DNA of 64,000 nt from Eledone cirrhosa (taxonomy: Eukaryota): positions 97,774,001 through 97,838,000 of the forward strand of contig OZ024740.1 of assembly GCA_964016885.1 (NCBI GenBank), in the 5' to 3' direction. Of the stretch, positions 9,131 to 60,850 are shown piece by piece. The notes beneath the pieces are model-generated. The model had not been told where the DNA came from. It saw only the letters and a list, made by a program, of their open reading frames with translations, and made no database searches. Positions within the stretch are counted from its first letter, which is position 1. The number at the start of each line of letters is the position of its first letter. A program made the position numbers and the translations under genes.

Positions 9131-11399
9131 AACAAGCGTTCATGCACAACATAGATATATATTTGTGTGTGTGACTATATATCTAGATAAAAGCTCATAC
9201 TGAGACATATCTACACTATGCAAACATAAGATGCATATATATTTGCAACTAAAAATGAATAATCAATTATTTCATGAATTTTTGATACACTTATTGACAT
9301 TTGAAAGCAGCATTGTTAACACCGTCACTACTACCAACATGAACATCGCCATCATCATCATCCTTATCATATATCTTTGAACTAATTTAGTTGATTGTTT
9401 AATCCTAGTAGTACATATGGTGTTCACTCAATTATCACCATTTAATTAATCTCAATCTAAAATCTCAGACAATCATAGATATTTATATCACTTTTTTTTT
9501 AAATCTAATTCATATATTAGAAACCTATTTACACACAGAATGTAATAATTAGGCTGCTAAATAATGTGAAAACATTTTATTTTTTTATCTATACCATAAT
9601 CAATCGGTATCATCAACCATCTCGTTTTCTAACTACTCTTTTATATTTATCGGTTATATATTTGAGCTTTGCTGTTTGCCAAATAAAAGAATTTGGTTGG
9701 CATTTTTGCAAGATATACAACATATTTTCTGTTTTTATATATTTTATAAATCAATTAATAATAGAGTGATGGGTGTGTTATATTAAGCAGTAGCACATGC
9801 AATGATCATCAGTTTAATTAGATAGCATTCATGTTGGAAACACCAGGGGCTTTGCAGATGATTGACTATTAATTCAACAATGGGTCGGTACAATTTCTCC
9901 AGTAAGTGCAGAAATCTCTGAATATGCAGGTGTGATGAGCTGCATATATTCTAGCCATTAGAAAAAGCAAAATGAATGCTTCCCCTCCGATGATGGGATG
10001 ACTCAAGTAAATAAGAACAACAAGAGGGAAGATGCAGTGTCATAAAAGATGTAAGAAATATTCTCCCCCATGGTATTAAGATTGATACAGTTGATGTTCA
10101 GTTTTTAACATCTGCATGTCAATAAATGTGAGAAAGAAGGATTGAAGTGGAATTATATAAGGCAGCTAACTAGTAACACTATATATACTCATTACTCATG
10201 CATAAATCAGAAATATTTATTACTCAATACTAACCCACTTAAACAGCAGTATACAATATTGTCTGCATTTTACATCTGACTTGCAGCTATTACTACTTCT
10301 ATTACTACTTCTTATAATTGGCTATTACCACATTTTATAATTGGCCTGGGCTTATTATCAGCTTGGTAGTCAGGGAGGGGTACCTATATTTTACATTTTC
10401 GTTTTAGTCTATTACTAGCTTTGTACAGGATTGACTAGAAAACACCTGTCCAGTTTCTATGATATAAAACAATTAGTCTTAAATTGTTTATAATTATATT
10501 TTAACCTTACATTATAATTTTATAGAAGAAACGTTTGATGTATTATGTTCTATGCATCCATGTAATACTAGAAATGTATTTTAACTGAACTGTTGATTAT
10601 TTCCAAACCTAATTAAACATATGGGTAGAATATTCAATTAGAAACTTGATCACAAATTGGTTAATATGGGATTTGAGATAGAAGTACGGGTGCTGTGTGG
10701 TAATTATAGTGATGAGATATGTATGCTGTTAAAATAAACTAGGCTATTAGTTTAATATAGACTAGCAGAGGTACCCGGCATCGCCCGGAATAACTCTCAA
10801 TGGAGTAGTTGTTCAAATGAACCAAAACACTTCCGTAAAACACGACTATGGAAGTAACAATTTATAGGTGTTGGCCCTAAAGAGTGCCTTTGAACGTTCA
10901 CTTTGAAATATCTCTGCTACGGTGCTGCCAGCTAAGACGAATCCGATGGTAACAATTTAAAGTTGGTGGCCCTAAAGAGAGCCTTGGATCATTCACTCTT
11001 AAGAGTCTCAGCGGCAGAGCTGTCAGTAAAGACGACTCCGATTTGGTGTGTCGTATTTGCTTTGCACATTTGAGATTGTAACCTAATAAAGCATGTAACA
11101 ATCGGTGGCCACAAAAACGGCCTTGGCATGATCACGCTGGAATGTCAAAACAATGTGTAAATAAAATGTCGGGAAAAGTAGATTGATTAGGTTAAAACTA
11201 CAGAACATCGATAGCAAAGTGTAATGGCAACATATAAATGCAGAAAATAGGGACATTGAACATTTATAATGTATAGCAAAAGCAACCTCAGAGGCGTACG
11301 TGGTATTGTCAAAAGGACAAAAATAGCACATGGATACAGCAAAAATAAAACACTGATTATAGTAATTACTTGTTGGCGGATGGAGTGCCTACCAAACTT

Positions 11400-11935
11400 C
11401 ATTATAGACTATATTTTGGGTTTTCTCGCAAGTTGCAAAAGGAAATAGGTAATGTCGGCTCACCACTCGAGAGCAGCCAACATATAGTTGACCATGGGAG
11501 AAGCACGGTTCTTATAAATTAAGCCCTATGACCGTCAGCGTCTGGCACTGTGATTTGTTAATCAACATGTCGAAACTGAGCCAGAGTGGGAATTGCAGCC
11601 TTCTGAATGTGAAAGGAATGTCTTTACCGGATGGATTGAGAGGTATCCTTGGTATGAAGACAGTATCCCCCTGACCCCATCCTGTAAGTATTGTTGCCTC
11701 AATAACATGAGGCATCGCCTTTTGGACGATCAGATGCATGCCATTAGAAAGCATTCAGGGTTCTAAATTCCTGAGGAGCATGACAGGGGCACTTTTCTTA
11801 AGTAGCAGTAAGTGTGGTAGCAATCCGGGAGGGTCTAGGGAGTTAAGAAATGATGTGGAGTAATTAACAACTTCATCCGGATCAGCCATAGAGTCAAGGG
11901 ACTAGTAGACATGCAGGTTTCCAGGCAAGCCCAGC
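11400..11935 (-). pseudogene. Helitron PIF1-like helicase C-terminal fragment
   Basis: PHVIEATILTG..VFIPRIPL..FTFRRLQFPLWLSFDMLINKSQCQTL..GLNL*EPCFSHGQLYVGCSRV. Confidence 0.9.
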
Positions 11936-12074
11936 GTAGTTGGAGGAAGGGTCGTAGTTAAAGGCATTCAACAACCATCATGAGTTGCAAGTCCTAGAAA
12001 TGCCACGTAACGATGATCGCCGCTGTTCACTTTGCAGAAGTCGGCCACATCGTCGCTCTATGGTTTCAGTATTT

Positions 12075-12335
12075 CATGCAACAGCAGTGGCAGCGACGTC
12101 CCTGCTTCGTCGAACGGTGCGTCGTCCTTCATCCTCTCGTGCATGAGCAGTGTATGTTGCAGTGGCATCCCTGCTTTGTTGAACGGCACGTCATCCTTCA
12201 TCCTCTCGAGCGTGAGCAGCGGCCATTGCTGTGGCGTCCCTGCTTCGGCGAACGGCATGTCGTCCTTCATTCTCTCGAACGTGAGCAGCACCTGTTGCAG
12301 CTGCGACCCTGCTTTGTCAAACGGCGCGTCGCGGC
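12075..12335 (-). repeat. 69-bp tandem repeat (~3.5 units) in the Helitron RepHel N-terminus
   Basis: tc(g/a)tccttcat(c/t)ctctcg at 12122, 12191 and 12260; 23-aa Arg/Ala-rich repeat downstream of MLPKKRTFIGR (12521). Confidence 0.8.
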
Positions 12336-13663
12336 AGCATCTTTGTTCCGTTGAAGTTCAAGCCAACTGTCATCCTCCTCCGCTCTTGCAGCTGCTGTCT
12401 GCACAGCATTCTGTGAGAGCCTGATCGCAGTCACATTTACATCTTTGGTGAAACGCCTTCGCCTAGACCTACTTGCATCATTAGATATTCGACCAATGAA
12501 AGTTCTTTTCTTGGGGAGCATTGTTTTTAGAAAATTAACCAGGGAGAACGATAAATAGTGGACAAATAACGTTTAAATAAGCAAATCTAAACATGGATAT
12601 AAATTGTGAAAAAATGTGATAAATCTATGTGGTCTGTGAAAGTGGGTATGTTTTGCAAGATTTTGTGTACCAATCAAATTTCAGGTTTTAAGTTAGGGGC
12701 AATGCAGCGTACGGACTACCTGTGATAAAGGAAATTAAGTAGTGTGGCTACAGTGGTAGGTATATAAGTGTGAGTATGTTTGTTCAGTTCGAACATAGCA
12801 ATAAGTAATGAAAGGATACAGTCAAAAATGGCCGAGGGGGTCCTCTTGCTGAATTGAAATGAAAGGAAATGTGCCTCACTGTATCTTCATCTGTAGTACA
12901 TGAATAACAACTAAGTCAAAATGAATTTTATTGGACTACCAATTATCGAAGCTATGACGCTTTGCTGTAATACAATAGCCAAATTCAATAAATGACTCAC
13001 CGGGTTTACTGCTCCCTGGGGTCCCCTTGCTTGTTTCAAATATAGACACTCTCTTCAACATCATCTTTAGGCAATGGGTAACCTATGTGTCCGGTAAAGT
13101 TAAAATCAAACGTAAACTTCAAAAGTTATGTGAACTTCAATAGATAAGTCGAAGGAGCTTACAGCCCCCCCCCCTCGCTACGGGCTCCTCTTGATAGGTT
13201 CAAGTAAAAGTTCATGTGTTCACCTTCCATTTTAAGCCATGGGTAACCAATACATCTCTCTTCGTGAAAACCAAACACCATTCAAGCAGTTTATTGCATT
13301 GATGATATCAACTTCAACATTCATCAAGTCAGTTTACTGTCCCCCAAGGGGTCCCCTACCTGAATTTGAAAGTGCATGCCTGCAAATTTGTTTGTAGACC
13401 ATAAGCAAACAAAAGATTAATTTCAGTGAAGATGGGAGGCAAACTGCAGGAATTATGGGGCCTTTATGCTGTAGTACTGCTGACTCCAAGCGAGAGGCTT
13501 AGGAGGGCAGAATCGATGTACGGAAAAATAATATAGCGTATGACGCGTAATAGCACGTCAGAAACCTATGTATTAAATTTGGTGCAAATCGGTTGTAAAA
13601 TGTAGAAATGCATGCAGTTACACAGATAGACAGACAGACATCTTCTGTTTTATATATTTAGAA

Positions 13664-13704
13664 GACTAGCAGAAAACCACCCGGTGGGTGGTTTTCTGCT
13701 AGTC
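13664..13704. repeat. Perfect palindrome with CTAG at both feet (19-bp arms, 3-nt loop)
   Basis: gactagcagaaaaccaccc-ggt-gggtggttttctgctagtc. Confidence 0.95.
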
Positions 13705-13717
13705 GATATATATTTAA

Positions 13718-13748
13718 CACACACACAAACACACAAACACAAATACAG

Positions 13749-13779
<31 letters not shown>

Positions 13780-14039
13780 CACCCATGTTCATATTTTGAG
13801 ATGCATTATTCTCAAATCAGATTATTATCTCTGACAGGAAGAACCAGTTTATAATTTTTAAGAAAAATTAAGCATACAGACATATTTTAGGAAACTTATG
13901 AATTCCTGTACACACACACACACACAAACACTTACACAGATACACACAGACACACGCACAGACAGACACACACGCATACGCTAACACACACATACACACT
14001 TAAACCTATATATATACATATATAATATACATATATAGT

Positions 14040-14105
<66 letters not shown>

Positions 14106-14325
14106 CACACACACACACATATAACACACACCCATATATAAAACACACACACGCACACACATACACACACACATATAACACACACACACATATATAACAC
14201 ACACACGCACACACATACACACACACATATAACACACACACATATAATACACACACACACACGCATACACACACACACATGCATACACACACATATAACA
14301 CCCACACACATATATATGTATATCA
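13718..14325. repeat. (CA)n/(TA)n microsatellites and a CA-based minisatellite
   Basis: Direct inspection; repeated acacacacacatataac-type units at 14105-14310. Confidence 0.9.
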
Positions 14326-14644
14326 TATGCTCAGCCCCAGTGAGTTGGTTAAAACACCAAAAGCCAGTCTTAAAGTTGTCGTCTGTAAATTCAAAGAACT
14401 CGGCTGTGTCTGGCTAGATCTCCATGGTAACTACTCCAAGGTCGCGCGTGCCATGGCTGGGAACGCAGGTGTCACGTGCTGGCCTAGAACGCTGGTTGTT
14501 GGAATCAGTGGTCGACGACATAACATATATATTATATGTGTGTGGAATAGTATAAATACTTCTTCATATTTACTAACATATATATATATTATATATTATA
14601 TATACATACATTATATATATATTATTAATATATTACATACGTAC

Positions 14645-14694
<50 letters not shown>

Positions 14695-14763
14695 TAAAAT
14701 AAAAGATTAAAGTTTAAGCAAAGAATCGCTGCTTTCACCCTTAACGGGATCTTCTGAACCTAA

Positions 14764-14804
<41 letters not shown>

Positions 14805-15131
14805 CTGGTGATTTCTCAAGAATGAAACAGTTCTAGTCTATATATATATTACACACACAGAAATGTATATATATTTCTGTGTGTGTATATATATATATAT
14901 ATATATTACACACACAGAAATGTATATACATTTCTGTGTGTATATATATATATATATTTCTGTGTGTGTATATATATATATATTACACACACACAGAAAT
15001 GTATATATATTTCTTAGAACAAAATAATTATTAATGTTTTGCTGTTCATAACAATTGGAATTGAAAAATTACTTTTGAAATTATTAGTTATTTTATTAAT
15101 GCTTAGATATGTAAAAATGAAGCAATGTTTC

Positions 15132-15324
15132 TAATAATTGTTTCTACTTTTGGCACAAGGCCAGCAAATACTCAGTACATTACTGGTACTTTATTTTATC
15201 GACCCCGTGAGAATGAAAGGCAAAGTTAACCTCGGCGGTATTTGACCTTAGACCGTAAAGGGACGTAACTCCATGCTATGAAGCATGGTGTCCGACTCTC
15301 TACAGATTCTGCCAATCCACCGCC
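15132..15324 (-). mobile_element. SINE family A copy
   Basis: Reverse complement of the 6728-6925 consensus. Confidence 0.85.
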
Positions 15325-15325
15325 C

Positions 15326-15599
15326 TAATGCCTGTACGTAGTGAGGGAGTGAGAGGGGAGAGAAAGAAAGGCAGAGGTGAAGTGACGAAGTGACTCTCTC
15401 CTCCTCCTCCATCTCCCCATTCGTCGCAGCGATAGAGGGGAGGAATGTTAGTGTGTTGAAAGAGAAAGAGTGAGAGTGAGAGAAACAAACAGACTAAAAG
15501 AGAGGGATAGCTGGAGAGAGAGACAGATAGCAACCACGCGCGCACGTGTTTCAACTGTCGGACAGACAGAGAAATTGCTGGTTATATATTATAAGGAGA
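15326..15599 (-). mobile_element. Helitron 5'-end fragment (second family)
   Basis: Minus strand begins A|TCTCCTTATAATATATAACC..ctctgtctgtc, the same layout as the 13665 terminus. Confidence 0.55.
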
Positions 15600-16659
15600 T
15601 TACTGTTTAGCTCTAACCCAACACTAGTCAATCAGCTAACCTACACTAAAAGTCGTTCCAACAATGAACACCCTCTCTTAATTCTGGCTATAACATTTCT
15701 AGGTCTGCATTATCGAATGTGTCCTCTTTTTCTTTAAAATGATAGGGCATACATTAATAGAGATTTGGCTACTATTTTTTGCAAATCTGTTAGGTTGCAT
15801 TGTTGGCTTGTTGGGTAGCACATAACATCCATGTAGGGAAAGATAGGGTAGGATGGAGTGAAGTGTGGTATCATCTAGAGAAATATATGTGTATGGAAGA
15901 GGGTTTAGAAGTGAAAGTAAATATGTTGTTAATGACATTCTGAATGTCAAAGGTAAACAGTAAAGGTTATATAGCTTTTTTTAAAAAAAAGCATGAAATA
16001 TTGGAGAGATTATGAATATCATAAGTATAACCGTGACTCTAGGCCAAACAAACTAGATTTTTAACCACACATGAATGTAGTTGAAAATTTACTTTGCATA
16101 TATGTGATTTTGGATTTTTTCCTACTGCCTTTAAATGACATTTGAAAGGCAAATATATTTTTTGAAGCATATTTAATTAACTATTTCTATTTCGGTGTGG
16201 CAGATATAATCTGGCACCTAGTTTAATGCTTTTGACATCAACCTGCCCTAAACTGGCTCTGGTGCTATGAAACAAAACTACTCATTTCAAAGAGTTCTTA
16301 CTTAAATTAAAACCTTCTAGCATAATTTGATATGAGAAACATTTGTTGAGTTGTGTTAGAAATAATCAATAATTTTAGTAAATCTTTCCCCATTATTCAT
16401 TAATTAATTTGTTTTGCGAGGCTTTTGATAGGAAATCGTGTGTCGAAACAAATATTGTTATACATAGGGAGGGTCATATTGTTGTAATAATATTGCCAGA
16501 AATAATAACAGAACACACTCACTGTTTGGTTGTTTTTTGCTTCTGTATCTGTATCGGTTATATCTCCACAGTTAATTCATTTGGTCCTCAAATGTTTATC
16601 ATTGACTGACCAACAGTAAAAAATTCAGATATAATATAGATATAAACACATATATATAG

Positions 16660-16705
16660 ACTAACAAATTTCTTTCGCTGCACATCTGCAACATCATCAG
16701 TGGTA
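16660..16705 (-). ncRNA. Hammerhead-like core (partial)
   Basis: CTGATGA-t-gttgca-gatg-tgcagc-GAAA with a 6-bp stem II; stems I and III not recoverable. Confidence 0.45.
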
Positions 16706-18554
16706 CTATTATGATCCTCCTGTTTTATTGTATATCTACACCATTTTTATTTTATATGTTTATTTATTTATTTATTTTTGTCTTCTTCTCTGCTTAAGCG
16801 TTTGTGTGTGTGTATAATGTTTGGTGTGTGTTCGCGTTTGGGTGACTGTGTTTTGGTTATTGTATTCTATCTTAGTTTACTAGTGTGTGTTTGTATGTGT
16901 CTGTTGTTATTGTGCTTGTGTATATATTTATTTATTTATTTATATTTCTCTTAAGTCAGTATTAATTAATTGAAATACACTATATTAGAAATATAGTCAT
17001 GAAACGATTAATATCCCTGCGTGGTACTTTAGTGCCTTTCCCAGAGTCCACCTCTTTGCAAGCATTCAGGTCAATTTTTTAGTTTACAGATACTTTCCTT
17101 GCTTCCATTCACCACTCTTGGAGAGAGTGGAAAAATGTCATGGGCACAACCTTATCTCACCAACCTGAGTCACCAAATAAATATTGCAAATAAAAAAAAT
17201 GATAATTTTCAAATTTATTTTATGCTACCATATTGTAAGCAATAAAGACAGGAACCATAGATTTTTAGGCCAGATTAGTGAGGCTGTTGCTGTTGCATAA
17301 ACTCCAAGTGAGTCATGATCAAGGAAGCCTACTATCAAAGGCATTCAAATCATTGCTATTCAGCCATATTTACATATAGAGCATAGTTTCATTTGTGTTG
17401 GTTGTATAATATGGTAGGGTGAAGTTTTAGTGATGCTTTGGTGTTATCTTTAGCAAATCAATCGACAATGCAGAAGCTTCCTTATTGAATCTAAATTAGA
17501 GACAGGATTCCTTTGTTATTTGATATTGAAGTTCTGTAAGTTGATAATATCAGGACAATCTGAACAGGGAAGGAACTCCATGGGGTCAGGTATGGTGGAA
17601 AAGGATTGCATAAAGAACTCAGTATGAAGTTGTTGGGGCAGATAGTAGTAGGGATAATGGGAGGGGAAGAAGTAGAGGCATCAAATGAGCTTTGGCAAGG
17701 TTGCTATGCATCACACTATGACAGAAGAAAAAAGAAACAGAAACAGCTGCAATAGTGGAAAAAGTGACAAAGGCACTTTTCTCGCCATGTTAATTAGCTT
17801 TGAGAAATTTATTGTTAATTTCTTGAAATTATCTTCCCTTTTGTTTGGGAGTCAAAACTGCTGCTAGGCTTTTCTTTTTTTTTTTTTTCAACAGAGGGAA
17901 ATGTCAATTGACTAAGAATGTTTTAATGTACAGCACTGAATAACACTCTTGTTCACCTTTTCATTACCGTATTTATAATTAAATGCTCTGTATTTTAATT
18001 TATTAATGTAGAATTTGGAGAGGTTTCTTACAATTACTAATTATTTCTTTTTAAATGGTATTTGTAACATAACAAATAGTCCTAATTATAAAATTAATTT
18101 GAAAGATTTTTACTTTAAATAGGAATGGTTGTTTTGTCTCATAGAATAAGGAGCCAGTTTTGGATGGCTGTTGTGAGACATTTGTGAAGTAGTGAAAATG
18201 ACATCAAGAAACTGAACCAGAGAGAGGAGATGAAACAGGACCAATCTGATTGGCAAGATGTCATAAGACAAAAGACCAACCATCAACACAAGCATTGTGA
18301 CACAAAGAATCAATGTAGAAATAGAAAAGAATACAAGAAAGAGAGAAGACATTTATCCTGTCATGAACAAGATGATCTCTGCTACATGGAAGGCACTCAG
18401 CTGCCCATCCATGCGTTTGTAATGTGATGAGTGAAGTAAACTAGATATTGATGTAAAAATCAAATGGAAGCCTGCAGAAGATTGTTGTTGGCTAAAAAGA
18501 AATGTAGAGAAGACTCTTCATTCTAGCAAATGTATATACTGTGACCATGATAAT

Positions 18555-20450: not shown

Positions 20451-23400
20451 CTACAGACGTATATTCAGAGTGGTCTCGTTCACTCGGACCATTCTCGCTA
20501 CATTCACCCACCTTTCAACAAACTTGCTAGAAAGCAGCACTTGCCTCTCCACCCTGATTTTCCTCTTCAAGTGAAACTTGAAAAAGTTAATCAGGGATTC
20601 GCCGAAGAGGAAAGTGTTTGTCTTTAATCCTTTTAACCTTGTCCACCACACAATCTCTTTCGCCATGGCCACCAGGCAGATGAAAACCGCCTGCCCTTCC
20701 TCCTCAAAGGAAGACGGCGAGACCATCTGCACAATGGACTCAGTCGACAACCGGTTCAGTCCCACACGTGACAGCAACTGTTCTACATAGCTCCACAAGT
20801 CAGCAATGCCCGGACACTGAACGAGTGCATGCACAACGGTTTCGTCGCTATGCGCGCATCTCGGACAGGCTCGGCTGACGGCACTTCCGTGCCTGTAGAG
20901 CTTATCTCGAACCGGTAGCGCTCCCCGGTAGCACTGCCAGGCCAGGGATTTTTGGAAGTTATCCATAGGCCCCGGGCTGAAAGTGCTCCGGAAGAGAGCA
21001 AGCAGCTGATATTCTTCCATGCCCAGGATCTCTCCGAGAACGTCGTCGCTCTTCCCCTCAACTAGTCCTCTATAGAACGCCGAGGTGGATGTTCCACCGA
21101 TACTAGTGCCCAACTGGGAGAGGGCAGTGAGCGCCTGGAGACATTCCAGTTTCCAAGCGCTATCCCTCGGTCTTTTTCTGACCCAGGACTGCAGCTCCGT
21201 CAAGGAGACGAGCTGTGGGAAAATGTGCTTGTCGAACGGCTACCACACCCGTTCACCATCAAGGAAGCACCAGAGATGTCGCAGCCTCAGCGCATGTTTG
21301 CGCATCATCAGCCATGGCATGCCCATTCCTCCACGCAACGGGTGTTGACAGCAGATGGATCGTCTGACCATGGGAGCGCGTCCCTTCCACAAAAAGCGGA
21401 AGAGGAGGCGCTCCATTTTGGTGAGAGTTGGGCTGGAGCAAGGGACGATGGTCAGGCGGTAGCAGATGACGGATGCGATGTACGCATACGCCACTTCCGC
21501 CTGGCCTTTCAGGGACAGCTTCCTCTCAGCCCATTTCTGGGTGAGGGAAGCCACCCTGCTCGTCACCTCGTTCCAGTTTTTCTCCATCTGGAGGTCCGGT
21601 CCGAACCAGACCCCGAGCAATTTAACCGGTCCATCCGTCCAACGTGCCACGACGCTGTCAGACGGCATGGAATTGCCTCTCCAGGTGCCTAGCTGCAAGC
21701 CCACCGACTTTTCCTGGTTTATCTTTGCTCCTGTCACCGTTTCGTATTCCATGAGAGCAGTGCCGAGCATCTGGATGTGTCTGGTGCTCAACACCACCAC
21801 GGTGACGTCGTCAGCGTAAGCCGACTCGGATTTCCCACATCCTAGTTCGCGTGGGACGCCCCTCATCGCCCCCAGTTTGTGCAGTAACAGCTCGAGAGCC
21901 AATACGTACAAGAGGGGCGAGAGGGGACAACCCTGGCGGACTGAGCACATGATGCTGAACGGCTGCAACAGGTGACCATTCACCCTCACAACTGAGCAGA
22001 TGTCGCTGTACATTGCTGCGATCCAACGCCTGAAAACGGGCCCAAAACCGGCTGCCTCGAGGACCGCCGCCAGGTACCGATGGTCGACCCTATCGAATGC
22101 TTTGGATTGATCCAAGTTGATCCCACCCTTGCCAGATTCCTTAACCACCCTCTCTATGATGTATCGCATGAGGTGGAGTTTGTCGTGTATGGATCTGTCC
22201 GGGATGGCGCATGTCTGCGCCTCTCCCACCAGACCCTTGACGACAAGTGCCAACCTCGTTGCTAACACCTTGGCCAAAATCTTGAACTCTGCGTTTAGCA
22301 GAGTTATGGGCCTGAAATTATCAATAACATCCCCCTTGTTCGGGTCTTTTCTCAGCAGTGCCACTGCTCCCCAGTTCACAAAACTGGGAATGCTCCCGTT
22401 CTGCTGCCAGTTGCAGTAGACGTCTGCCAAGGGGTCACCGAACAAGTCTGGCATAAATGCATAAAGCTCGTAGGGCAGACCATCTAAACCTGGCGATTTA
22501 CCTCTTGTGCAGTTAGCCATCGCTTCCCGTATTTCACCGGCTGTTATTGGCTTTTCGCAACACTGTGCTGCAGTCGTCGAGAGCCAAGGCAGTCCGTCGA
22601 GGTATGCAATGAAGTCCATGTCCCGATCCGGGCCGCTGCCGCTCCCGAACAGTTCAGCAAAGTGCTGCTGAAAAGCTTCACACATCCGCTCGGGTTCGAG
22701 CATCACGCACCCGTTTTGGTCAGACAAAGACCGAATTGTGGCTTTATTGCCACGTCGCACCTCTGCCACCCAGGCCCATTGGACGGCTTTTGTCCCCTCG
22801 TGTTTCAGAGCATGCGCTCTAGCTCTAACAACGCAGCCTTCGTGTTTTGCGTTAAAGAATTGGTCGAGTGCCAATCTCGCCGCAAGCACGTCGGTTGCGA
22901 TGCCTGTCCTAAACGCCTCTTCTAGCTTTCTGACTAGCTCTCCCTCTACTCTATTTTCCTCTATCACTACTCCTTTGCTAAACCTAATCGACTCTACTTT
23001 AATTGCCCTTTTCAGGGCGAACCACCACCTGTTGTTGACGACCGCTCCCGTCAACGCCCGCTTAACTAATACGCTAATCCGGTCTCTGTAGGCCTTGCGC
23101 GCCGGGAAAGACGCGTTCAGCTTCCAGTAACCGGGCCCTTGTCTATGAAGTCTGTCTATGTCCATCTCACAGATCACAAATTTGTGGTCTGTGTAGTCGA
23201 CTATTTTAAATTGTGGACAACTTATACTAGCCTTATCTAGTTCTCTGCAGAATACCCTATCTAGATACGATCTGGATGACCTGATGCGGTTTGTCCATGT
23301 CCACATTGGCACATTCGGGTGATCTAGTCGATACCTGTCAGACAGTTCAAAATGTCTGAGCAGGTTGGTGAGGCTCTTGCACCCTCCTCCCCTATTCACT

Positions 23401-23864
23401 AGCCCCACACGATCCCAGCCTGCATCCAAGATACCGTTCCAGTCGCCCACTAACACTAAAGAGTGGGACGTTCCAAGAAAGGTCTCTAGACGTCTGAAGA
23501 AATCTGGCCGTCCTGCCCCTGTTGGGGCGTAGACGGCTACTAGCCTGAAAGCATTGCCTTCGCTGCCGGTCACGTCCAGCACCACCGACTTACCTTCTGG
23601 GTCCAGGAAGATGGCCCGTATCGCGAGATCCAAGCCTCTCCGAAAAAGGACGGCAACCCCTCCCCCCGATCCTGGACGACTGGGAGATGCGTATACATCG
23701 TAGCCGCCGAAGATTGGTGAGAAGGCCCGTGCCTCGGAGATTCTGGTTTCACTGGTGGCCACCACATCTATGTTTAGTGACCTGAGTTCATTGAGCAGCT
23801 CACCCTGCTTCCAAGATGACCCCAGGCCACGTGCATTTATACTTCCTATTCTGAGTACAGCCAT
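20451..23864 (-). CDS. Tx1 ORF2 (AP endonuclease, reverse transcriptase, zinc-binding domain) with one in-frame nonsense codon at 21240-21242
   Basis: SINARGL, SETR, AVYAP, GDWN, TDH, KSPGLDG, NFRPITLLN, DQSKAFD, VRQGCPLSP, AYADD, CPRC..H..C; track ORFs 21240-23900 and 20451-21203 are in the same frame. Confidence 0.92.
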
Positions 23865-23896
23865 GTTGGATGAGAAACGGGGCAAATGAGAAAGGG

Positions 23897-25974
23897 TCAC
23901 TTACCTTGTTCGTGTGGTGAAGGGACAGTAGAACCGTCCCTTTCGCTGGTCATGGGTGTTTCCAAGAGGATGTCAGTGTATATCCTCTTGGTAACAGTCC
24001 CTCTGAAGTCTCCAACTGCGTTGGGGAATTTTCGTTTTAAAGGTTTGTATTGTTCTAATGAGATTTCGATGATGCTTATGTTTGACGGGACAGTTCTTGG
24101 TGTTGGTGGGGTGTAGTAATTTTTTTCCGTGATGTCTGTGTGCTGCTTTATATATTTTATGAGTTCTTTTTTTGCTAGGTTTATGGCTGTGTACTTTTTG
24201 GGGGGAGGGGTGATTTTGTTGCCGTTTTCTTCTTGTTGCTGTTTGGTGTGTGTGTCTTGTTGTGTTTGCGTTGTTGGTGTTTGTGGTGGTGTTGCTGCAA
24301 GTTTCCTTGCTGCCTTTACCCCTCTTTGTATGCCTTCGCTTTTGGAGGGTGAATCTAAGGATTTTTTTTGTTTTTTGTTTTTTTATGGCAGACTGTTTGC
24401 CACGTCACTCCCGCCTCAAACTCCATGTCGGATTCTGTGGCGTCTGGGAGGTGTATGTGTTCCACGGCTGTTGGTGGTGGTAGTGGAGCCCTCTTCGGCA
24501 ATATTGTTGCTGGTGTAGCTATTTCAAATGTAGCTATTGGTGTTGCCGCTACTGATGATGCTGCTTTAGTTATCCGTGGCCTTGGTACGGAGGCTACGGA
24601 CGTTGCCCTCCTACTTACCGTGGAAAAGGCTTCTTCGTTTGTTGCCTGTCCTGCTCTTGGTAGGAGCGGACCAGGTATTGGAAGGAGAGGGGCCCTCTTC
24701 GGTGTCTTCTGTGGGCAAAAGGCCCTGAGGTGACCTTTTGACCCACAGAGATAACATTTTGGCCATCTTCCTTCTACACCTATAGGGAGTTGGAGTCCTT
24801 CCTCAAAGTCTATGATATCGGGGATAGCCTCGATACATTCCTGGTCAGTTTGTATAAGCATTTGCATGCCTATACCTGACCAGTTCTCTCTCCCTATTTT
24901 TTCTATTTGCAGCATGGTCGGCCTGTTCTCAATTCCAGCAAGGACAGACGCGGCCAGCCAAGGTATGGGCACATCGGGTGGGACCTGGGTCACTTTGACC
25001 CTCACAATTTTCTGCCCGCAGTAGGAGGGCACCAAGACTAACTCCTCACTCTTTAGGGTTTCCAAAGAGTGAGACTTTGCTTCCTGGGGGGTGGCGAAAA
25101 GTACGTCTACTGTGGCCTACTTTCTGCCCCTGGTGATGTGGGTTTTGCGTGCCCAGACGCACCCCAAGGCCTTTTGGATTTGAGCATCCGTGGCTCTCTC
25201 CACTCGATGTGAGATTTTGCTTACGGTGCGGTAAGTCACCGTTCGTAGCTGCTGGTCCTTGAAAAAATCGGGTGGAGGTTTCAGGGAAACTCTATTTGCG
25301 CTTCTTGTCACCATGGCCCTTGCGACTGCCATCTCCTCCTCTGTGACTAACATTGTCTCGATATTTCGGGCGACACCTGCAAAAGAAGTGGTCCCTTTTT
25401 TAGCAGCACCACTATTGCTGCCGCTACTGGTCTTACTGGTGGTGCTGAGGTCGCTATTACAGGTATCGGTGTCATTGTTGTACTTTTCGCTGGTACAGTT
25501 GTTGGTGTTGTTTTCGTTGATACTGTTGCTGCTGTGACTGTTATTGTGGCTGTTGTTATTATTGTTGTTTTTGTTAATACTGTTCCTACTATTATTGTTG
25601 TTGTGGCTGTTGTTATTGTCATTGTTATTGTCGTTCTCGACCTTACCTCTGTTATTTTTGTTATTGTCGTTCTCGACCTTACCGCTGTTATTTTTGTTAT
25701 TGTCGTTCTCGACCTTACCGCTGTTATTTTTGTTATTGTCGTTCTCGACTTTACCGCTGTTATTTTTGGTGTTGTTGTTGGTGGTGTTGTTTGTGTTAGA
25801 AATATTTGTTAATTTTAAATCTGTAACAATCCTTTTTTCCTTTGTAATATTTTCATTTATATTTACCTCCGCTGGAACACTGTCTTGTTGACATGCTGAT
25901 AAAGTCTCCCTCTCTCTGTGTTGTCTGATAGCGCTCTCTCTCTTTTTTGTGTTATCCATGTTGAAATTTTTCAA
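23897..25974 (-). CDS. Tx1 ORF1 (gag-like, CCHC zinc knuckle, Asn-rich N-terminus); one stop (25117) and one frameshift (~24360, poly-A)
   Basis: CYLCGSKGHLRAFC; ORFs 25117-25974 and 24355-25065 in frame; the shifted frame stays open to TGA at 23897, just upstream of the ORF2 ATG. Confidence 0.8.
25625..25768 (-). repeat. 36-bp tandem repeat x4 in ORF1 (NNSGKVENDNNK)
   Basis: Unit gttattgtcgttctcgaccttaccgctgttattttt. Confidence 0.9.
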
Positions 25975-26174
25975 AAATATTTTTACACAAATACGAATAC
26001 GACACCCCGTAAAGGGGTGCCGTATTATTTACTACTGAAACCCCTGTATTAGGTGGGTCACTTCTTCTAAACTTTTATCAAATTTAAAACTTGAATAAAA
26101 GGTTTAGAACGGTTGAAAAAGAGGTAAAACGTTGAAAAAGACTGGAGGCGATAAGAAGCGTGGCTTCACCAACC

Positions 26175-26204
<30 letters not shown>

Positions 26205-26205
<1 letters not shown>

Positions 26206-29200
26206 CTTTCTTTATTAACCACAAGGGTTTACACAAAGTAAAACATTAAGGACAATACAGGACGGTACAAATGGGCATTTCTGCGTGTAAAAATAAAAAC
26301 AGAGGATGTAACAAAAAAAGAAACAATGAAAAATTCCCCAATAGGGGGGAGTCTTCCGAGGGACATTCGTGGAGAAAGCCCATTAAAAAGTCACAGTGAC
26401 CCTGACCACCAGGGCAAGTGCTCTCTCCCAGTTTTCCACCTTCAATTTACAGGCGCATACTCGGGCCATGCCTGCCTCTCTCAAACATCTTTCAACAAAA
26501 TGCTGGGAAGAGAGTACTTCCCTCTCTACCCTGATTTTCCTTTTCAAATGAAATTTGAAAAAGTTAATCAGGGCATCACCAAAGAGGTAAATGCTTGTCT
26601 TCAGCCCTTTCAAAGGCGTCCACCTCACTATCTCTTTCGCCATGGCCACCACACAGATAAAAACTGCCTGCTCTTCCGGGCTAAAGAAAGAGGGCGGGAC
26701 AATCTTCATGATGGTCCGTCCTATACGTGACAGCAGGTGTTCGACATAAAACCATAAGTCATCAATGCTCGGGCACTGGACGAGTGCGTGCAGGATGGCT
26801 TCATCGCCCTGCCCGCATCTCGGACAGGCCCGGCTGACAGCACTTCCATGCCTGTAGAGTTCATCCCGAACTGGCAAGGCTCCTCGGTAGCACTGCTAGG
26901 CCTTGAATTTCTGGAAGTTGTCCATGGGCCCCGGCCCGAAAGTTCTCCCGAAGACATTGGCTAGTTGGTTTTCGTCAACACCCATAGTCTCCCCAAGTAC
27001 GTTGTTGCTCTTCCCCTCCATTAATCCTCTATAGAACGACAAGGTGGAGTTTCCAGTGATTGTATTGCTCGACTGGTCGAGGGCTGTAAGCGCCTGTAGA
27101 CATTCCAGCCTCGAAGCGCTTCCTCTCGGTCTTCGCTTGACCCAGGACTGAAGCTCCACCAAGGAGACAAGCTGGGGAAACATGAGTCTAGCAAAGGTCG
27201 ACCACACCTGATCACCATCAAGGAAGAGGTGGAGATGTTGTAGCATGATTGCATGTCTGCGCATCCTCAGCCAGGGCAAGCCCAGCCCTCCGCATAGGGG
27301 GTGTTGACAGCAGATGGATCGCCAGACCATCGGAGCACGTCCCTTTCTCAAAAAGCGAAAGAGCAAACGCTCCAGTGTAGTTAGGTGAGGCTTAGGACAA
27401 GGCACGATGGTCAGGCGGTAGTAAATGACAGACGCGATGTACGCATTCGCCACCTCCACTCAACCTTTCAGGGATGGCTTCCTCACAGCCCATTTCTAGG
27501 TGAGAGCAGCCACCTTGCTCGTGAACTCCTCCCAGGTTTTTGTCTGTCTGGAGGTCCGGACCGAACCATACCCCTAGCAATTTAACCGGTCCGTCTGTCC
27601 AGTGCCCGACGACGCTGATGGACGGCATGGACCTGCCTCTCCAGGTGCCGAGTTGCAGGCCTACTGATTTTTCCTGGTTGATCATTACTCCTGTCACTAC
27701 CTCGTACTCTCTTAGTGGTGCCAATCGTCTCAATGTGCTTGCCGTTCAAGACCACTATGATGATGTCGTCTGCATATGCTGACATGGTTCTTCCGCATCC
27801 TAGTTCACACAGGATCCCCCCTCAACGTCTTCAGTTTGTGCAGTAATGGCTCGAGAGCCAATACGTGCAACAAGGACGTGAAAGGACATCCATTGCGGAT
27901 GGAGCGCAATATGTTGAACGGTTCTGAGAGGTGACCGTTCACTCTTACCACAAAGCAGATGTCGCTGTGCATTGCAGCAATCCAGCCTCTGAAGACGGGA
28001 CCAAAGCCAGCTGCTCTTAGGACTGCCGCCAGATAACGATGTTCGATCCTGTCGAAAGCTTTTGACTGATCTAAATTGATCAAAGACCCATCCATGCTAG
28101 GTTCCCTAGCTACCCACTCTACGATGTATCGCATGAGGTGGAGGTTGTCGTCGATGGATGTCTGGAATGACGCATGTTTGCGCCTCTCCCACTAGACTAC
28201 CAATGACAAGCGCCAACCTCTTTGCTAGCACCTTAGCTAAATTCTTGAAGTCTGTGTTTAGCAGAGTTTTGGTCCTGAAATTGTCTATGTTATCCCCCTT
28301 GTTTGGATCCTTTTTCAGAAGCGCCACAGCTCCTCGGCTCACAGAGCTGGGAATTCTCCCGTTTTACTGCCAGTTGCAGTAGACATCCGCCAAGAGGTCT
28401 TCGAACAAGTCTAGCATACGTATGTAAAATTCGTATGGCAGACATTCCAAACCAGGCAATTTACCCATTGTGCAGCTAAGCATTGCCTCCCGTACTTCAG
28501 CAGCTGTTATCGGCCTTTTGCAACACTCCGCTTCAGTGGCCGAGAGCCGCGGCAGTCCGTCGAGGTAGGCACTGAAGTCCATTCCACGATACGGCCCACC
28601 ACTGCCCCCGAACAGCTGAGCAAAGTGCTGCTGAAAAGCCGCATACATCTGCCCGGGATTGAGTATCATGCACCCGTCGCGGTTTGCCAATGACCGTATC
28701 GCCACCTGGGCCCATTGAACGGCTATCGTCCCCTCGTGTCTGAGAGCAGGCACCCTAGCTCTGACAACGCAGCCTTCATGCTCAGCGTTGAAAAATTGGT
28801 CGAGAGCAAATTTCACCACAAGCACGTCGGGCGCGATGCCTTTACTAAGCACTTCGTCTAATTTGCTAACTAGATTTCCTTCTGCTCTATTTTCCTCTCT
28901 TACTAACGCTTTACTAAACCTAATGGACTCTATTTTAATCGCTCTTTTCAGGGCAAACCACCATTTGTTGTTGACGATGACCCCTGTCAATGCCCACTTA
29001 ACTAATTCACTAATCAGGCTCTGTAACCTTTGCGCGCTGTTAACGACGCGTTTAGTTTCCAGTAGCCGGGTCCCTGTCTATGAAACCTATCTAAGTCAAC
29101 CACACAAATCCCGAATTTGTGGTCTGTGTAGCCGACTATCGTTAATTGTGGACAGCCTATGCTAGACCTATCTATTTCCCTACAAAATACCCTATCTAGA

Positions 29201-29548
29201 TATGATCTGGATGAAGAGATGCGGTTTGTCCAAGTCCACATTGGTACAATCTGGAAATCCAAACTGTACCTGTCAGACAGTTGAAAACGTCTGAGCAGGT
29301 TTGTGAGGCTTTTGCACCCTCCTCCCCTATCCGCTAATCCCACACAGTCCAAGCGTGCATCTAAGATCCCGTTCCAGTTGCCTACTAATACTAAAGAGCG
29401 GGACGTTCCAAGAAAGGTCTCCAGCCGTCGGAAGATTCAGGCCGTCCTGCTCAGCGTTGATTGGGGCATAGACGGCCACTAGCCTGAAAGCTTGTCATCC
29501 TCCGCTGGTCACGTCCAGCACCACCAACTTACCTTCTGGGTCCAAGAA
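26205..29548 (-). mobile_element. Tx1-type LINE copy 2 (ORF2 pseudogene plus 3'UTR; 5' part lost)
   Basis: Colinear homology to ORF2 of copy 1 with many frameshifts; own AATAAA and (TTA)n tail at 26175-26203. Confidence 0.92.
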
Positions 29549-32077
29549 CTTGCAACGTTCCCTGGTAGCAGTGCCAGGCCAGGGATTTCTGGAAGTTATC
29601 CAGATGCCCCGTGCTGAAAGTGCTCTTGAAGAGAGAGAACAGCTGATCGTCTTTGACACGCAGAGTTTCCTCAAGAATTTCATCGCTCAACCCCTCCACT
29701 AGACCTCTATAGAACGCCGAGGTGGATGCTCCAACGATATCAGAGCCCAGCTGGTAGGGGGCGGTGAGCGCTTGGAGACATTCCAGCTTCCAAGCGCTAT
29801 CCCTCGGTCTTTTCCTTATCCAGGACTGCAGCTCCACCAAGGAGACGAGCTGGAGAAAAGCGTGTCTGGCAAATGGCGACCACACATGTTCACCGTCAAG
29901 GAAGCACCAGAGATGTCGCAGTCTCAGCGCATGTTTGCGCATCATCAGCCATGGCATGCCCAGTCCTCCACGTCCCTTCCACAAAAGGTGGAAGAGAAGG
30001 TGCTCCAATTTGGTCAGAGTTGGGCGGGGCAAGGTACAACGGTCAGGCAGTAGCAGATGATGGACACGATGTCCACATTCGCCACCTCCACCCGACCTTT
30101 CAGAGATAGCCTCCTCTAGGCCCATTTCTGGGCGAGAGAAGCCACCCTGCTCGTCACCTCGCTCCAGTTTTTCTCCATCTTGAGGTCTGGACTGAAACAG
30201 ACCCCAAACAATTTAATCGGTCCTTCCGTCCAGTTCCCCATGACGCTGTCGGACAGGCTCTCCAGGTGCCAAGTTGCAAGCCGACCGACTGTTCCTGGTT
30301 TATCTTTGGTCCTGTCACCACTTCGTATCCTTGAGAGCGGTGCTGAGCATCTGGACGTGTTTGGTGCTCAACACTACCACGGTAACATCGATGGCGTAAG
30401 CCGACACCAATCTCCCACATCCCAGTTCGCGAAGGACGCCCCTCGTGGTCTCCAATTTGTGCAGTAATGGCTCGAGAGTCAGTACGTACAAGAGGGACTA
30501 GAGGGGACAACCCTGATGGACCGAGCGCATGATGCTGAACAGCTGCGACAGGTGACCATTCACCCTCAAAATAGAGCAAATGTGGCTGTACATCGCAGCA
30601 ATCCAGCCCTTAAAAACGGGCCCGAAACCGACGACCTCGAGGACCGCACACAGGTACCGATGGTCAACCCTATCAAATGCTTTAGATTGATCCAAGCTGA
30701 TCAGCGCCCCACCCGTGCCAGGTTACTTAACCACCGTCTCTATGATGTATCGCATGAGATGGAGGTTGTTGTGGATGGATCTGTCCGGAATGGCGCATAT
30801 CTGCGCCTCTCCCACCAGATCACCAACGACAAGCGCCAAACTCTTTGCTAACACCTTGGCCAAAATCTTGAACTCTGCGTTTAGCAGAGTTATGGGCCTG
30901 ATGTTGTCTATAACGTCCCCCTTGTTCAGATCTTTTCTAAGCAGCGCCGCCGCTCCCCGACTCACAAAACTGGGAAAGCTCCCGTTCTGCTGCCAGTTGC
31001 AGTAGACATATGCCAAGAGGTCGCCAAACAAGTCTGGCATGTACGCATAAAGCTCGTAGGGCAGACCATCCAAACCTGACGATTTACCCCTCGTGCAGTC
31101 AGTCAGATATCGCTTCTTGTATTTCAGCTGCTGTTATTGGATTTTCTCAGCACTGTGCTGCAGTTGTCGAGAACCGAGGCAGTCCGTCGAGGTATGCACC
31201 GAAGTCCATACTCCGATCCGGCCGCCGCTGCTACGAACAATTAAGCAAAGTGCAGTTGAAAAACCGCACACATCTGCTCAGGTTCGAGCAACATGCGCCC
31301 GTTTTGATCAGGCAAAGACCGAATAGTGGATTTGTTGCCACATCGTGCCTCCACCACCCGGGCCCATTGAACGGCTTTCGTCCACTCCTGTCTCAGAGCA
31401 CGTGCTCTAGCTCCGACAATGCATCCTTCGTGCTTTATGTTGAAGAATTGCTCAAGTGCCAATCTCACTGCAAGCACGTCGATTGCGATGCCTGTCCTAA
31501 ACGCCTCTTCTAGGTTTCTAACTAGCTCTCCCTCTACTTATTTTCCTCAATCACTACTCCTTTGCTAAACCTTATTGATTCTACTCTAATAGCCCTTTTC
31601 AGGGTAAACCACCACCTGTTGTTGATGATCGCACCCGTCAACGCATGCTTAACTAATTCGCTAATCCGGTCTCTGTAAGATTTGCGCACTGGGAACGACG
31701 CATTCAGCTTCCAGTAACCAGGCCCTTGCCTATGGAGTCTATCTAACTCAACTTCACAGATCACAAACTTGTGGTCCGTGTAGTTGACTACTTTAAATTG
31801 TGGACAATCTACACTAGCCTTATCTGTTTCTCTACAGAATACCCTATCTAAATACGATCTGGATGACCCGATGTGGTTTGCCCATTTCCACATTGGCACA
31901 TTCGGATAATCCAGTCTATATCTGTGAGACAGTTCAAAACGTCTGAGCAGTTTGTTGAAACTTTTACAACCTCGTTCTCTGTCTACTAACCCCACATAAT
32001 CCCAGCGTGCATCTAAGATCCATTCCAGATGCTCACTAACACTAAAGGGCGGGACGTTCCAAGAAATGTTTCCAGAC
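29546..32077 (-). mobile_element. Tx1-type LINE copy 3 (ORF2 pseudogene, truncated at both ends)
   Basis: Colinear ORF2 homology from mid-endonuclease to AWHCYQGTLQV. Confidence 0.92.
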
Positions 32078-32240
32078 AGTAATTTGTGGGGAGGGGAACG
32101 TCGATTAAATCGACCCCAGTACTTTACTGGTGCTTTATTTTATCAACCCCGTAAGGATCAAAAGCAAAGTTAACCTTGGTGGGATTTGAAAGGGTCATAA
32201 CTCTATGCTGCAAACATGGTCACTAACGCTCTATCATTAA
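32078..32240 (-). mobile_element. SINE family A, longer variant with an extra gtcgattaaatcgac hairpin, 3'-truncated
   Basis: actggtgctttattttatcaaccccgtaaggatcaaaagcaaagttaacc core. Confidence 0.75.
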
Positions 32241-48109: not shown

Positions 48110-48914
48110 CTAGCAGCAAAAACCGTCCTTCATGCGGTTTTCTGCTAGATGCAGTGTGCATATTGGAACACCTCAGCCTCACCATCACCCCAGGTAATGC
48201 TGCGAGTGTGCTGGCTTGCCTCAAAAATTATTAGAGAGGTTTCCCAGTGCTCCTCGCTATATTGCTATCTTTTGCTCTGGTAGCGGCTGGTTTTTCCACT
48301 CTTTCACCTGCATATTATTCTGTGGTCTAAGATGTGTGTATTATCTCACTTGTGTATTTTTTCTCATTCTTTTTTTCCTTTCCCTTTCCTTTGTTTATAT
48401 TATATTTGTTAGTGTTTTTGTTCTGTAACCATCTAAGTTATAATAAAGTAAGAAGCGCAGGACTGTGTACGGTTTATAAGTTTTTATCCCCTTAGTAAAA
48501 TAAGTTGCATTACTTTGAATAAATAATGAATGAATATTACATAATTGATCTACTAAATTTCGTGGCTGTTCATTAAATATATTTTATTACTTATTTAATG
48601 ATTCACTTCTTTAAAATGTTCAAATATCAACATTTCTGGTTAGCGATTGTTTAAATAAATATTCATATATTTCTGTCCCTAATTTTCTCCTAGTGCAGTT
48701 TATATATAATATCGTCTTTTTTTAATGTATCGTGGATTACGTTACTGATTACACAAGAGAGTGTAACACAGTTTTCGTTCAATTTCTATGTATATTGTCA
48801 ATTACAATTTTATCCGATGTATCATATCTACATGCATATATACTTGCGTAAAATATCAATATACACACTACACATGCTAGCAGAAAACCATCCGAAGGGT
48901 GGTTTTTCTGCTAG
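48110..48914. mobile_element. Segment bounded by two CTAG-footed palindromes (candidate Helitron-related non-autonomous element)
   Basis: ctagcagcaaaaaccgtccttcatgcggttttctgctag (48110-48148) and ctagcagaaaaccatccgaagggtggtttttctgctag (48877-48914); outer flanks A| and |T. Confidence 0.55.
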
Positions 48915-60521: not shown

Positions 60522-60850
60522 TATATATAATATATAAGATCAAAAGATGGTTAAAGGAGTTCCATGTATTTTATTATGCGCATTTCAAAAACAAACATCA
60601 TCATGCAATAATATTTGTGTTTTCATCAGATAAAACAGGAGGACATGATATGAAGGCTAAAAAACACTTGTGGATATGTTGATTTAAAACTGCACTATCC
60701 ACAAGTGTTTTTTAGCCTTCATATCATGTCCTCCTGTTTTATCTGATGAAAACACAAATATTATTGCATGATGATGTTTGTTTTTGAAATGCGCATAATA
60801 AAATACATGGAACTCCTTTAACCATCTTTTGATCTTATATATTATATATA
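60522..60850. repeat. Perfect fold-back: 155-bp arms (60522-60676 / 60696-60850), 19-nt spacer
   Basis: Arms read as exact reverse complements; each carries a hammerhead-like motif. Confidence 0.95.
60737..60803 (+). ncRNA. Hammerhead-like motif (mirror copy on the minus strand at 60569-60635)
   Basis: ttttat-CTGATGA-aaacacaaa..tttgttttt-GAAA-tgcgc-ata-ataaaa; stem III looks like a decayed GAAACGCGT. Confidence 0.45.

What the first reader, a model, noticed from the sequence alone, without database searches (positions are those of the whole stretch)
13664..13704. Two-faced Helitron terminus: a tiny CTAG-footed palindrome fused CTAG|TC to a Helitron 5' end
Seen: a perfect 19-bp-arm hairpin, CTAGCAGAAAACCACCC-ggt-GGGTGGTTTTCTGCTAG, so each strand ends in ...TCTGCTAG|T. 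Its minus-strand CTAG abuts the Helitron's first bases (TCTTCTAAATATATAAAA) with no spacer. Its outer 10 bp (gactagcaga) equal the Helitron's true 3' end at 10760-10769, so 10760-13704 acquires pseudo-TIRs. Two more relatives occur at 48110 and 48877. Established: Helitron RepHel (an HUH nuclease) uses a 5' TC and a 3' hairpin plus CTRR, and CTAG|TC is the head-to-tail/circle junction. Bacterial REP/REPIN hairpins with a GTAG foot are handled by the HUH enzyme RAYT. Inference: this ~37-bp unit may be a minimal, orientation-independent HUH substrate, i.e. a eukaryotic REP-like parasite or docking site of Helitrons.
Basis: partly seen in the sequence, partly recalled or inferred. Interest (0 to 1): 0.78.

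Follow-up and report, generated by a model that had tools for sequence, protein, structure and literature searches.

The report
Helitron that caps other Helitrons
The short palindrome is the tail of a rolling-circle transposon (Helitron) family whose copies almost always sit directly in front of another Helitron's start, likely because its transposase targets those starts, which would be a rare site-specific Helitron living on its own relatives.

Summary
The hairpin is real, but it is not a free 37-bp unit: 0 of 144 fetched copies were solo. It is the 3' end of a Helitron family, here a 1.93-kb non-autonomous element (15599→13666) fused CTAG|TC to an older 2.9-kb Helitron. That fusion is the rule for the family. 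Only 20 of 718 type-A tails are followed by T+non-C, and 17 of those are mutated Helitron heads. All 40 elements sampled by their 5' end alone end at another Helitron's first base, as do 9 of 9 tailed RepHel-bearing copies. About 31% of one resident family's heads are capped. Caps are closer to their relatives than their partners are (53 of 55 pairs) and show no clustering on the partner tree. An older family with the same palindrome arms inserts at ordinary A|T sites. Best reading (inferred, 0.75): a Helitron whose own divergent RepHel integrates at resident Helitron 5' nick sites. The palindrome has served as 3' end in both orientations, which supports 'two-faced'; the REP-like parasite and docking-site ideas fail. 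No cap-free allele was seen and no biochemistry was done. My ten paper searches found only sporadic head-to-tail pairs.

The parts
13666..13702 (-). 37-bp palindromic 3' terminus of the cap element: inner GC hairpin, 11-nt spacer and CTAG, with an upstream arm that pairs through the CTAG
   Evidence: 1685 pattern copies
13666..15599 (-). Non-autonomous cap Helitron, type X, 1934 bp; starts A|TC at 15600|15599 and ends at the palindrome
   Evidence: colinear with complete copy L047; nearest cap 1.1% different
15570..15599 (-). Family 5' end (A-type head), shared with the 9.68-kb RepHel-coding copy L314
   Evidence: junction also in contigs of sample S1
13664..13667 (-). Head-to-tail junction point (G|T of CTAG|TC at 13666|13665) between cap and resident Helitron
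10762..13665 (-). Resident 2.9-kb defective Helitron (partner B), with TC head and ordinary hairpin-CTAG|T tail
   Evidence: 6.1% from family consensus, nearest of 29 relatives 6.9%
11390..11910 (-). Broken C-terminal Pif1 helicase remnant inside B
   Evidence: PF21530, E 2.5e-10
10762..10790 (-). Ordinary 3' end of B; source of the chance 'pseudo-TIR' match
48432..48914 (+). A'-family non-autonomous Helitron, 483 bp; same palindrome arms, ordinary A|T insertion (control family)
48110..48148 (-). Degenerate A'-type palindromic 3' end with about 18 bp of body left

Best explanation
The palindrome is the 3' end of a Helitron family whose copies sit directly before the first base of other Helitrons, likely because the family's own RepHel transposase integrates at resident Helitron 5' nick sites. 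Shown: the anatomy (A-type TC head, variable body, palindromic CTAG tail), the near-universal CTAG|TC junction, an autonomous-type partner of 9.68 kb with Rep and Pif1 domains and the same ends, and use of the palindrome in both orientations. Inferred: RepHel nicks the resident at A|TC as it would a donor 5' end, joins the host A to the incoming TC, and joins the incoming CTAG to the resident TC, giving host-A|cap|resident. Repeated events would give stacks of different caps. Because both strands read hairpin-spacer-CTAG, a head lying on the other strand can adopt the same tail, which would have produced types Z, Y and X. Recognition likely needs more than the first ten bases of the head.
For: Junction frequency: 718 type-A tails, 20 followed by T+non-C; 17 of those are mutated heads, 2 lie in a cap-internal microsatellite and 1 in (TA)n. 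40 of 40 elements chosen by head alone end palindrome|head. RepHel-bearing copies: 11 places; 9 have the tail and all 9 abut a head, 8 independent, 4 of the 9 abutting another cap's head. Resident B1 heads: 1237 uncapped against 550 after CTGCTAG; 30 of 30 of the latter read were palindrome tails and none was B1's own tail. Independence: 26 label changes on a 58-row B1 tree against 25.8 shuffled, and both 100%-supported B1 subfamilies hold solo, A, Y and Z copies; at least 8 partner head types by eye. Order: cap nearest-neighbour distance is below the partner's in 53 of 55 pairs, medians 1.3% against 5.0%, the 2 ties being one locus fetched twice. Distance to consensus is lower in 13 of 15 A and 8 of 8 Y pairs. 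Pooled private substitutions 22/3716 against 48/4557, p=0.029. Window: cap 1.1%, partner 6.4%, and no near-identical sibling of the partner among 40 scored candidates. Controls: A' tails 13 TC against 158 T+non-C; A' is older (5.3% against 0.6%); ordinary tails abut an intact head exactly in 1 of 130, with about 5 near or mutated. Head-like 10-mers in background DNA are 30 non-head to 5 head; 0 of 25 A' heads are capped. Four stacks have clean A|T empty sites in paralogous repeats. The A body|palindrome and palindrome|B1 head joints appear in raw reads of two other samples. RepHel forms and cleaves CTAG|TC junctions precisely in vitro (PMC5876387, passages).
Against: No allele or paralogue with the partner present and the cap absent was found, so the order of events rests on divergence. 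Nearest-neighbour and consensus distances are inflated by sub-lineages in the partner families. Per-locus tests on private substitutions were not significant (A p=0.17, Y p=0.11). Capped B1 copies are not older than solo ones (1.1% against 1.8%, p=0.07). The B1 tree is poorly resolved (3 of 55 branches starred). The sibling search scored 40 of 226 candidates. TC after type-A tails was not counted directly genome-wide; only the T+non-C complement was. All fetched unselected samples come from contig C1. Nothing shows which protein made the junctions, every RepHel copy read is broken, and no sequence feature explaining the specificity was identified.
Confidence: 0.75

Rival explanations
1. Co-mobilisation: cap and partner are joined off-chromosome (circle-circle exchange or strand transfer between two RepHel complexes), or move by read-through, and land together at an ordinary A|T site.
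For: It gives the same final structure and clean A|T empty sites. Capped B1 copies are slightly less diverged than solo ones. The RepHel copies carry an older internal 3' end followed by a head-like sequence and the present tail, so read-through has happened in this family. Read-through and composite transposition are documented (PMC4778049, PMC4224331, passages).
Against: The order is strictly cap then partner: of 49 cap heads none follows an ordinary tail. Cap type is not clustered on the partner tree. Caps are much closer to each other than partners are, and the two distances do not correlate (rho 0.19, p=0.18). The window's partner has no close sibling. Caps can insert alone, rarely and at head-like sites (L021, L081, L084).
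Confidence: 0.16
2. Docking site: other Helitrons insert at the CTAG|T foot of a resident palindrome.
For: RepHel cleaves CTAG|TC junctions (PMC5876387, passages). One maize pair was read as possibly formed this way (PMC2267711, passages). About 5 of 47 A' tails are followed by a head-like sequence by script.
Against: It needs about 99% occupancy of young caps. The older A' family with the same arms stays mostly unoccupied. Caps look younger than their partners.
Confidence: 0.05
3. Solo, REP-like 37-bp mobile unit handled by RepHel.
For: High copy number; 343 copies have TC at both feet; both strands are usable as ends.
Against: 0 of 144 distinct copies are solo. Of 24 copies with TC at both feet, 19 have an A-type head behind one foot and the other 5 carry the X body.
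Confidence: 0.01
4. Ordinary rolling-circle tandem arrays, or an assembly artefact.
For: Head-to-tail arrays are a known Helitron product (PMC5876387 introduction, passages).
Against: The neighbours are different families; stacked caps are of different types (L012, L027, L300, L301, L312); the joints occur in raw reads.
Confidence: 0.03

Closest known systems
Canonical Helitrons (HLE1), e.g. Helraiser/Helibat1 (PMC4778049, PMC5876387, PMC11417382; passages read)
   Same: 5' TC, 3' hairpin 11 nt before CTAG, no target duplication, A|T insertion, Rep plus Pif1 transposase, non-autonomous derivatives, CTAG|TC junction chemistry.
   Different: The target is almost only the first base of another Helitron rather than dispersed AT-rich sites. 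The hairpin extends through the CTAG, making a two-way terminus. The RepHel is divergent (best database match 45%, 32-40% to 40 other RepHels of the genome) and has an N-terminal Ulp1/C48-like domain (just above cut-off).
Sporadic heterologous head-to-tail Helitron pairs: maize r1 pair (PMC2267711, passages) and abutting insertions in Myotis (PMC4778049, passages)
   Same: Exact CTAG|TC joint between different elements, read as consecutive insertions.
   Different: Single or few cases with the order unresolved; here it is the rule for a family with over a thousand copies and an autonomous-type partner.
Paramecium telomere-targeting Helitrons (PMC13085455, passages and section 18 part 1)
   Same: Helitrons inferred to have a strict target and fixed orientation.
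   Different: The target is telomeric repeat and the clade is separate; here the target is another transposon's 5' end and the termini are canonical.
Bacterial IS elements that insert into other elements' ends (IS4321/IS5075 into Tn21-family inverted repeats) and REP/REPIN-RAYT (both recalled; search returned nothing)
   Same: A mobile element using another element's terminus as target; hairpins with a conserved foot handled by HUH enzymes.
   Different: Different enzymes and hosts. The palindrome here never moves alone, so it is not a REP.

Membership tests
Canonical Helitron (HLE1) | 5' TC after host A | tested here: met
   Window 15600|15599; 38 of 49 heads follow an A (one of them 2 nt after a palindrome), 10 follow a palindrome (one mutated), 1 follows T
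Canonical Helitron (HLE1) | 3' hairpin 10-15 nt before CTRR, followed by T | tested here: met
   Inner GC hairpin, 11-nt spacer, CTAG|T
Canonical Helitron (HLE1) | No target-site duplication; clean A|T empty site | tested here: met
   Four cap-plus-partner stacks match paralogous empty sites; an empty site for the cap alone was not found
Canonical Helitron (HLE1) | Autonomous partner encoding HUH Rep and Pif1 helicase with the same ends | tested here: met
   L314: PF14214 E 2.9e-37, PF05970 E 6.6e-63, read through stops with X; 11 places
Canonical Helitron (HLE1) | RepHel falls in the HLE1 clade | tested here: inconclusive
   Hits are RepHel-type proteins of plants and animals; the tree had no labelled HLE1/HLE2 references and a long branch
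Canonical Helitron (HLE1) | Dispersed insertion at AT-rich AT sites (typical behaviour, not strictly defining) | tested here: not met
   40 of 40 sampled elements end at a Helitron head
Canonical Helitron (HLE1) | Rolling-circle transposition by RepHel | not testable with these tools
   Needs a cell or in vitro assay
HLE2 / Helentron | Short terminal inverted repeats, T|T insertion, endonuclease domain in Helentrons | tested here: not met
   TC/CTAG ends, A|T sites, no endonuclease hit
REP/REPIN-like solo hairpin | Occurs as solo or paired units in unique DNA | tested here: not met
   0 of 144
REP/REPIN-like solo hairpin | Hairpin with conserved tetranucleotide foot cleaved by an HUH enzyme | tested here: inconclusive
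   Hairpin and CTAG foot are present; cleavage is inferred from junctions only
TIR transposon / MITE (10760-13704 as one unit) | Terminal inverted repeats with target duplication, moving as a unit | tested here: not met
   The match is 8 bp of shared tail plus 2 flank bases; the palindrome belongs to the element on its other side

The most novel reading that the evidence does not exclude
A eukaryotic HUH transposase lineage has become a site-specific integrase for other Helitrons' 5' ends: a Helitron hyperparasite that uses resident elements as safe landing sites, puts its own start in front of theirs, can carry them along by read-through, and spawns new families from a two-way palindromic terminator.
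Probability: 0.6. Interest if true: 0.85.

Novelty: new variant of a known kind. Interest (0 to 1): 0.74.

Why it matters
How Helitrons choose and join a target is the least understood step of their transposition. A family with about 99% specificity for a defined 20-40 bp sequence, beside a control family with the same tail and ordinary targeting, makes that step testable by swapping heads, tails and transposases. It would explain heterologous head-to-tail pairs and 5' end turnover as targeted events rather than accidents, show transposon-on-transposon parasitism among rolling-circle elements, and point to a naturally site-specific eukaryotic DNA integrase. It also warns that repeat libraries for this genome will fuse or mis-end these families.

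Tried and rejected
Solo unit, docking site, pseudo-TIR element and RCA tandem array were rejected (see rivals). Looking for the autonomous partner among 40 long-ORF RepHel loci found no A head or palindromic tail (many ends lay outside the 10-kb stretches); it turned up instead in the head-only sample. Read laying showed no cap-free allele: sample S1 carries the cap's 5' junction; the flank at 10300-10759 had no coverage at 97% identity, for unknown reasons, so nothing was concluded from it. Comparing host flanks among fetched loci gave empty sites for whole stacks only; the L312/L318 pair share a host-repeat site but have different partners. A metagenome scan found only 27-42% relatives among the 80 loci kept of 560 and their ends were not examined. 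The fold of the N-terminal domain was queued and never returned; a sequence search of solved structures gave only weak SUMO-protease hits, E 0.09-0.55. One Fisher test treated 698 tails as TC without counting them and is not used. L140 was dropped as a misaligned subtype; L128 and L132 were dropped from the tree as near duplicates. A further sample of 20 two-TC copies could not be fetched, so that class rests on 24 of 343 copies. Earlier findings of this scan: none for this genome or sequence. The Yang and Bennetzen 2009 maize paper was not held; I saw it only as cited in PMC12477314. No supplements were read; Supplementary Fig. 4 of PMC4778049 may bear on how common abutting insertions are.

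Full report
1. Observation. The sequence at 13664-13704 is a perfect palindrome with 19-bp arms and a 3-nt loop; CTAG to CTAG it spans 13666-13702. It folds at -22 kcal/mol, z about -11.5. Its minus-strand CTAG touches the TC head of a 2.9-kb defective Helitron (13665→10762) that has an ordinary hairpin-CTAG|T tail and a Pif1 remnant. The match to 10760-10769 is 8 bases of shared tail motif plus 2 flank bases. The genome (G000, 3.0 Gb; an animal, octopus-like by my recall of its repeats, not tested) holds 1685 exact-pattern copies against 0 for the control, 343 of them with TC at both feet.

2. It is a 3' end, never solo. The first 54 copies examined (the first places listed on contig C1, three more two-TC copies and two from the window) fell into five bodies: A 22, A' 11, Y 11, Z 5, X 5. 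Over all fetched loci, 0 of 144 distinct copies had unique DNA on both sides. In the window the palindrome ends a 1934-bp X cap that begins A|TC at 15600|15599 and is colinear with L047. The hairpins at 48110 and 48877 belong to A', which has another head.

3. Caps end at other Helitrons' first base. Of 718 type-A tails, 20 are followed by T+non-C; 17 of these are mutated heads, two lie in a cap-internal microsatellite and one in (TA)n. To avoid selecting on the tail I took 40 consecutive heads from a list of 1064; all 40 ran to a palindrome joined to a Helitron head. From the partner's side, family B1 has 1237 uncapped heads and 550 after CTGCTAG, and 30 of 30 of the latter read were palindrome tails. 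Partners comprise at least eight head types by eye, including other caps, giving mixed stacks. Controls behave differently: A' tails are followed by TC in 13 of 171 copies, ordinary tails abut an intact head exactly in 1 of 130 with about five near misses, and 0 of 25 A' heads are capped. Head-like 10-mers in 606 kb of background loci were 30 non-head to 5 head, so a short AT-rich preference cannot explain the pattern.

4. The autonomous partner does the same. L314 is a 9.68-kb element with the A head, a RepHel frame (PF14214, PF05970; a few stops and frameshifts), the A body and the palindrome, fused to a B1 head. This RepHel occurs at 11 places; 9 retain the tail in the fetched stretch and all 9 abut a head, 8 independently. 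It is divergent: 45% to its best database match, 32-40% to 40 other RepHels of the genome, with a weak N-terminal Ulp1/C48-like domain. Eight of these copies hold an older hairpin end followed by a head-like sequence before the present tail, and the last 27 bp of the A body resemble A' (81%). I infer that the palindromic tail was acquired from an A'-like element and that targeting belongs to the head and transposase, not to the palindrome.

5. Order and independence. On a 58-row B1 tree, cap labels need 26 changes against 25.8 shuffled, and both well-supported subfamilies contain solo, A, Y and Z copies (resolution is otherwise poor). Caps are closer to their nearest relative than their partners are in 53 of 55 pairs (1.3% against 5.0%; 82 caps collected, 27 lacked a value or had a cap as partner). 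In the window the values are 1.1% and 6.4%, and a genome search found no close sibling of the partner among 40 of 226 candidates scored. Pooled private substitutions are 22/3716 against 48/4557 (p=0.029), but the per-locus tests were not significant and capped B1 copies are not older than solo ones. A' is older than A (5.3% against 0.6%) and somewhat older than B1a (about 4-5%), so it was probably available as a target and was rarely used. Four stacks have clean A|T empty sites. No cap-free, partner-present allele was seen; raw reads of two other samples carry the joints, so they are not assembly artefacts.

6. Two-way terminus. Relative to the element, the asymmetric core is forward in A (47/47), reversed in Z (18/22) and forward in Y-like (24/25) and X (5/5). 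L084/L085 show an A element inserted backwards into another A's microsatellite, the structure from which Z would arise. Y carries an inverted head of another Helitron joined CTAG|TC on the opposite strand, as expected from a Z-capped element re-used from the other side. L327 shows a longer, head-like form of the X junction, so the window's plus-strand CTAG|TC is likely such a relic. Occasional loop flips (4 Z, 1 Y, some A') mean orientation is not proof in any single copy.

7. Mechanism. Shown: anatomy, frequencies, controls, relative divergence. From established work: RepHel needs the 5' end, terminates at the hairpin, and forms and cleaves CTAG|TC junctions (PMC4778049, PMC5876387; passages). 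Inferred: this RepHel nicks resident heads at A|TC and completes two strand transfers that place the cap in front (0.75). Co-mobilisation (0.16), docking at the palindrome (0.05), arrays or artefact (0.03) and a solo unit (0.01) are the rivals.

8. Comparison and novelty. By ends, empty sites and domains the family is a canonical Helitron; clade placement was inconclusive. Heterologous head-to-tail pairs are in print as single or few cases (PMC2267711, PMC4778049; passages), a review cites preferential insertion near other Helitrons (PMC12477314, passages), and Paramecium Helitrons are inferred to target telomeric repeats (PMC13085455, passages and section 18 part 1). Ten searches of the held library returned no family that targets Helitron 5' ends and no two-way terminator; most hits I saw only as listings, and subscription papers and Repbase reports are not covered. 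Passages of PMC13282606 (octopus repeats), PMC6544945, PMC13286980, PMC4224331 and PMC11417382 did not mention it. Verdict: new variant of a known kind, interest 0.74.

Noticed in passing
window 60522-60850: Perfect 155-bp inverted repeat with a 19-nt spacer beside (TA)n, MITE-like or fold-back.
   Followed up: no
window 20900-32100: LINE with endonuclease and reverse transcriptase frame at 21243-23900 (-) and two further degenerate copies in tandem; another RT fragment at 51081-52073.
   Followed up: partly
L347:1150-1959 (-); L314:2388-3000: The cap family's RepHel begins with a Ulp1/C48 SUMO-protease-like domain (Pfam E 2.8e-4, just over cut-off; weak SENP1 hits). Role unknown; a candidate for targeting or for countering host silencing.
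   Followed up: partly
L314:9030-9075 and seven other RepHel copies: An older internal 3' end (hairpin, then a tail ending ATAG) joined to a head-like sequence: a fossil of capping followed by read-through.
   Followed up: partly
A' tails listed; L026, L032, L073, L139, L320: The loop of the palindrome is inverted in a minority of copies, suggesting hairpin-driven loop flipping.
   Followed up: no
G000 C16, C19, C20, C27: Near-identical RepHel matches recur about every 100-150 kb, apparently inside very large tandem units.
   Followed up: no
L312:6500-6619 and L318:3139-3257; L330, L051, L213: The same A|T position of two host repeats has been hit independently by different Helitrons: insertion hot spots.
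   Followed up: partly
window 10300-10759: No coverage at 97% identity in any of four runs although neighbouring unique DNA at 15600-17600 was covered in sample S1; filter, divergence or local rearrangement not distinguished.
   Followed up: no
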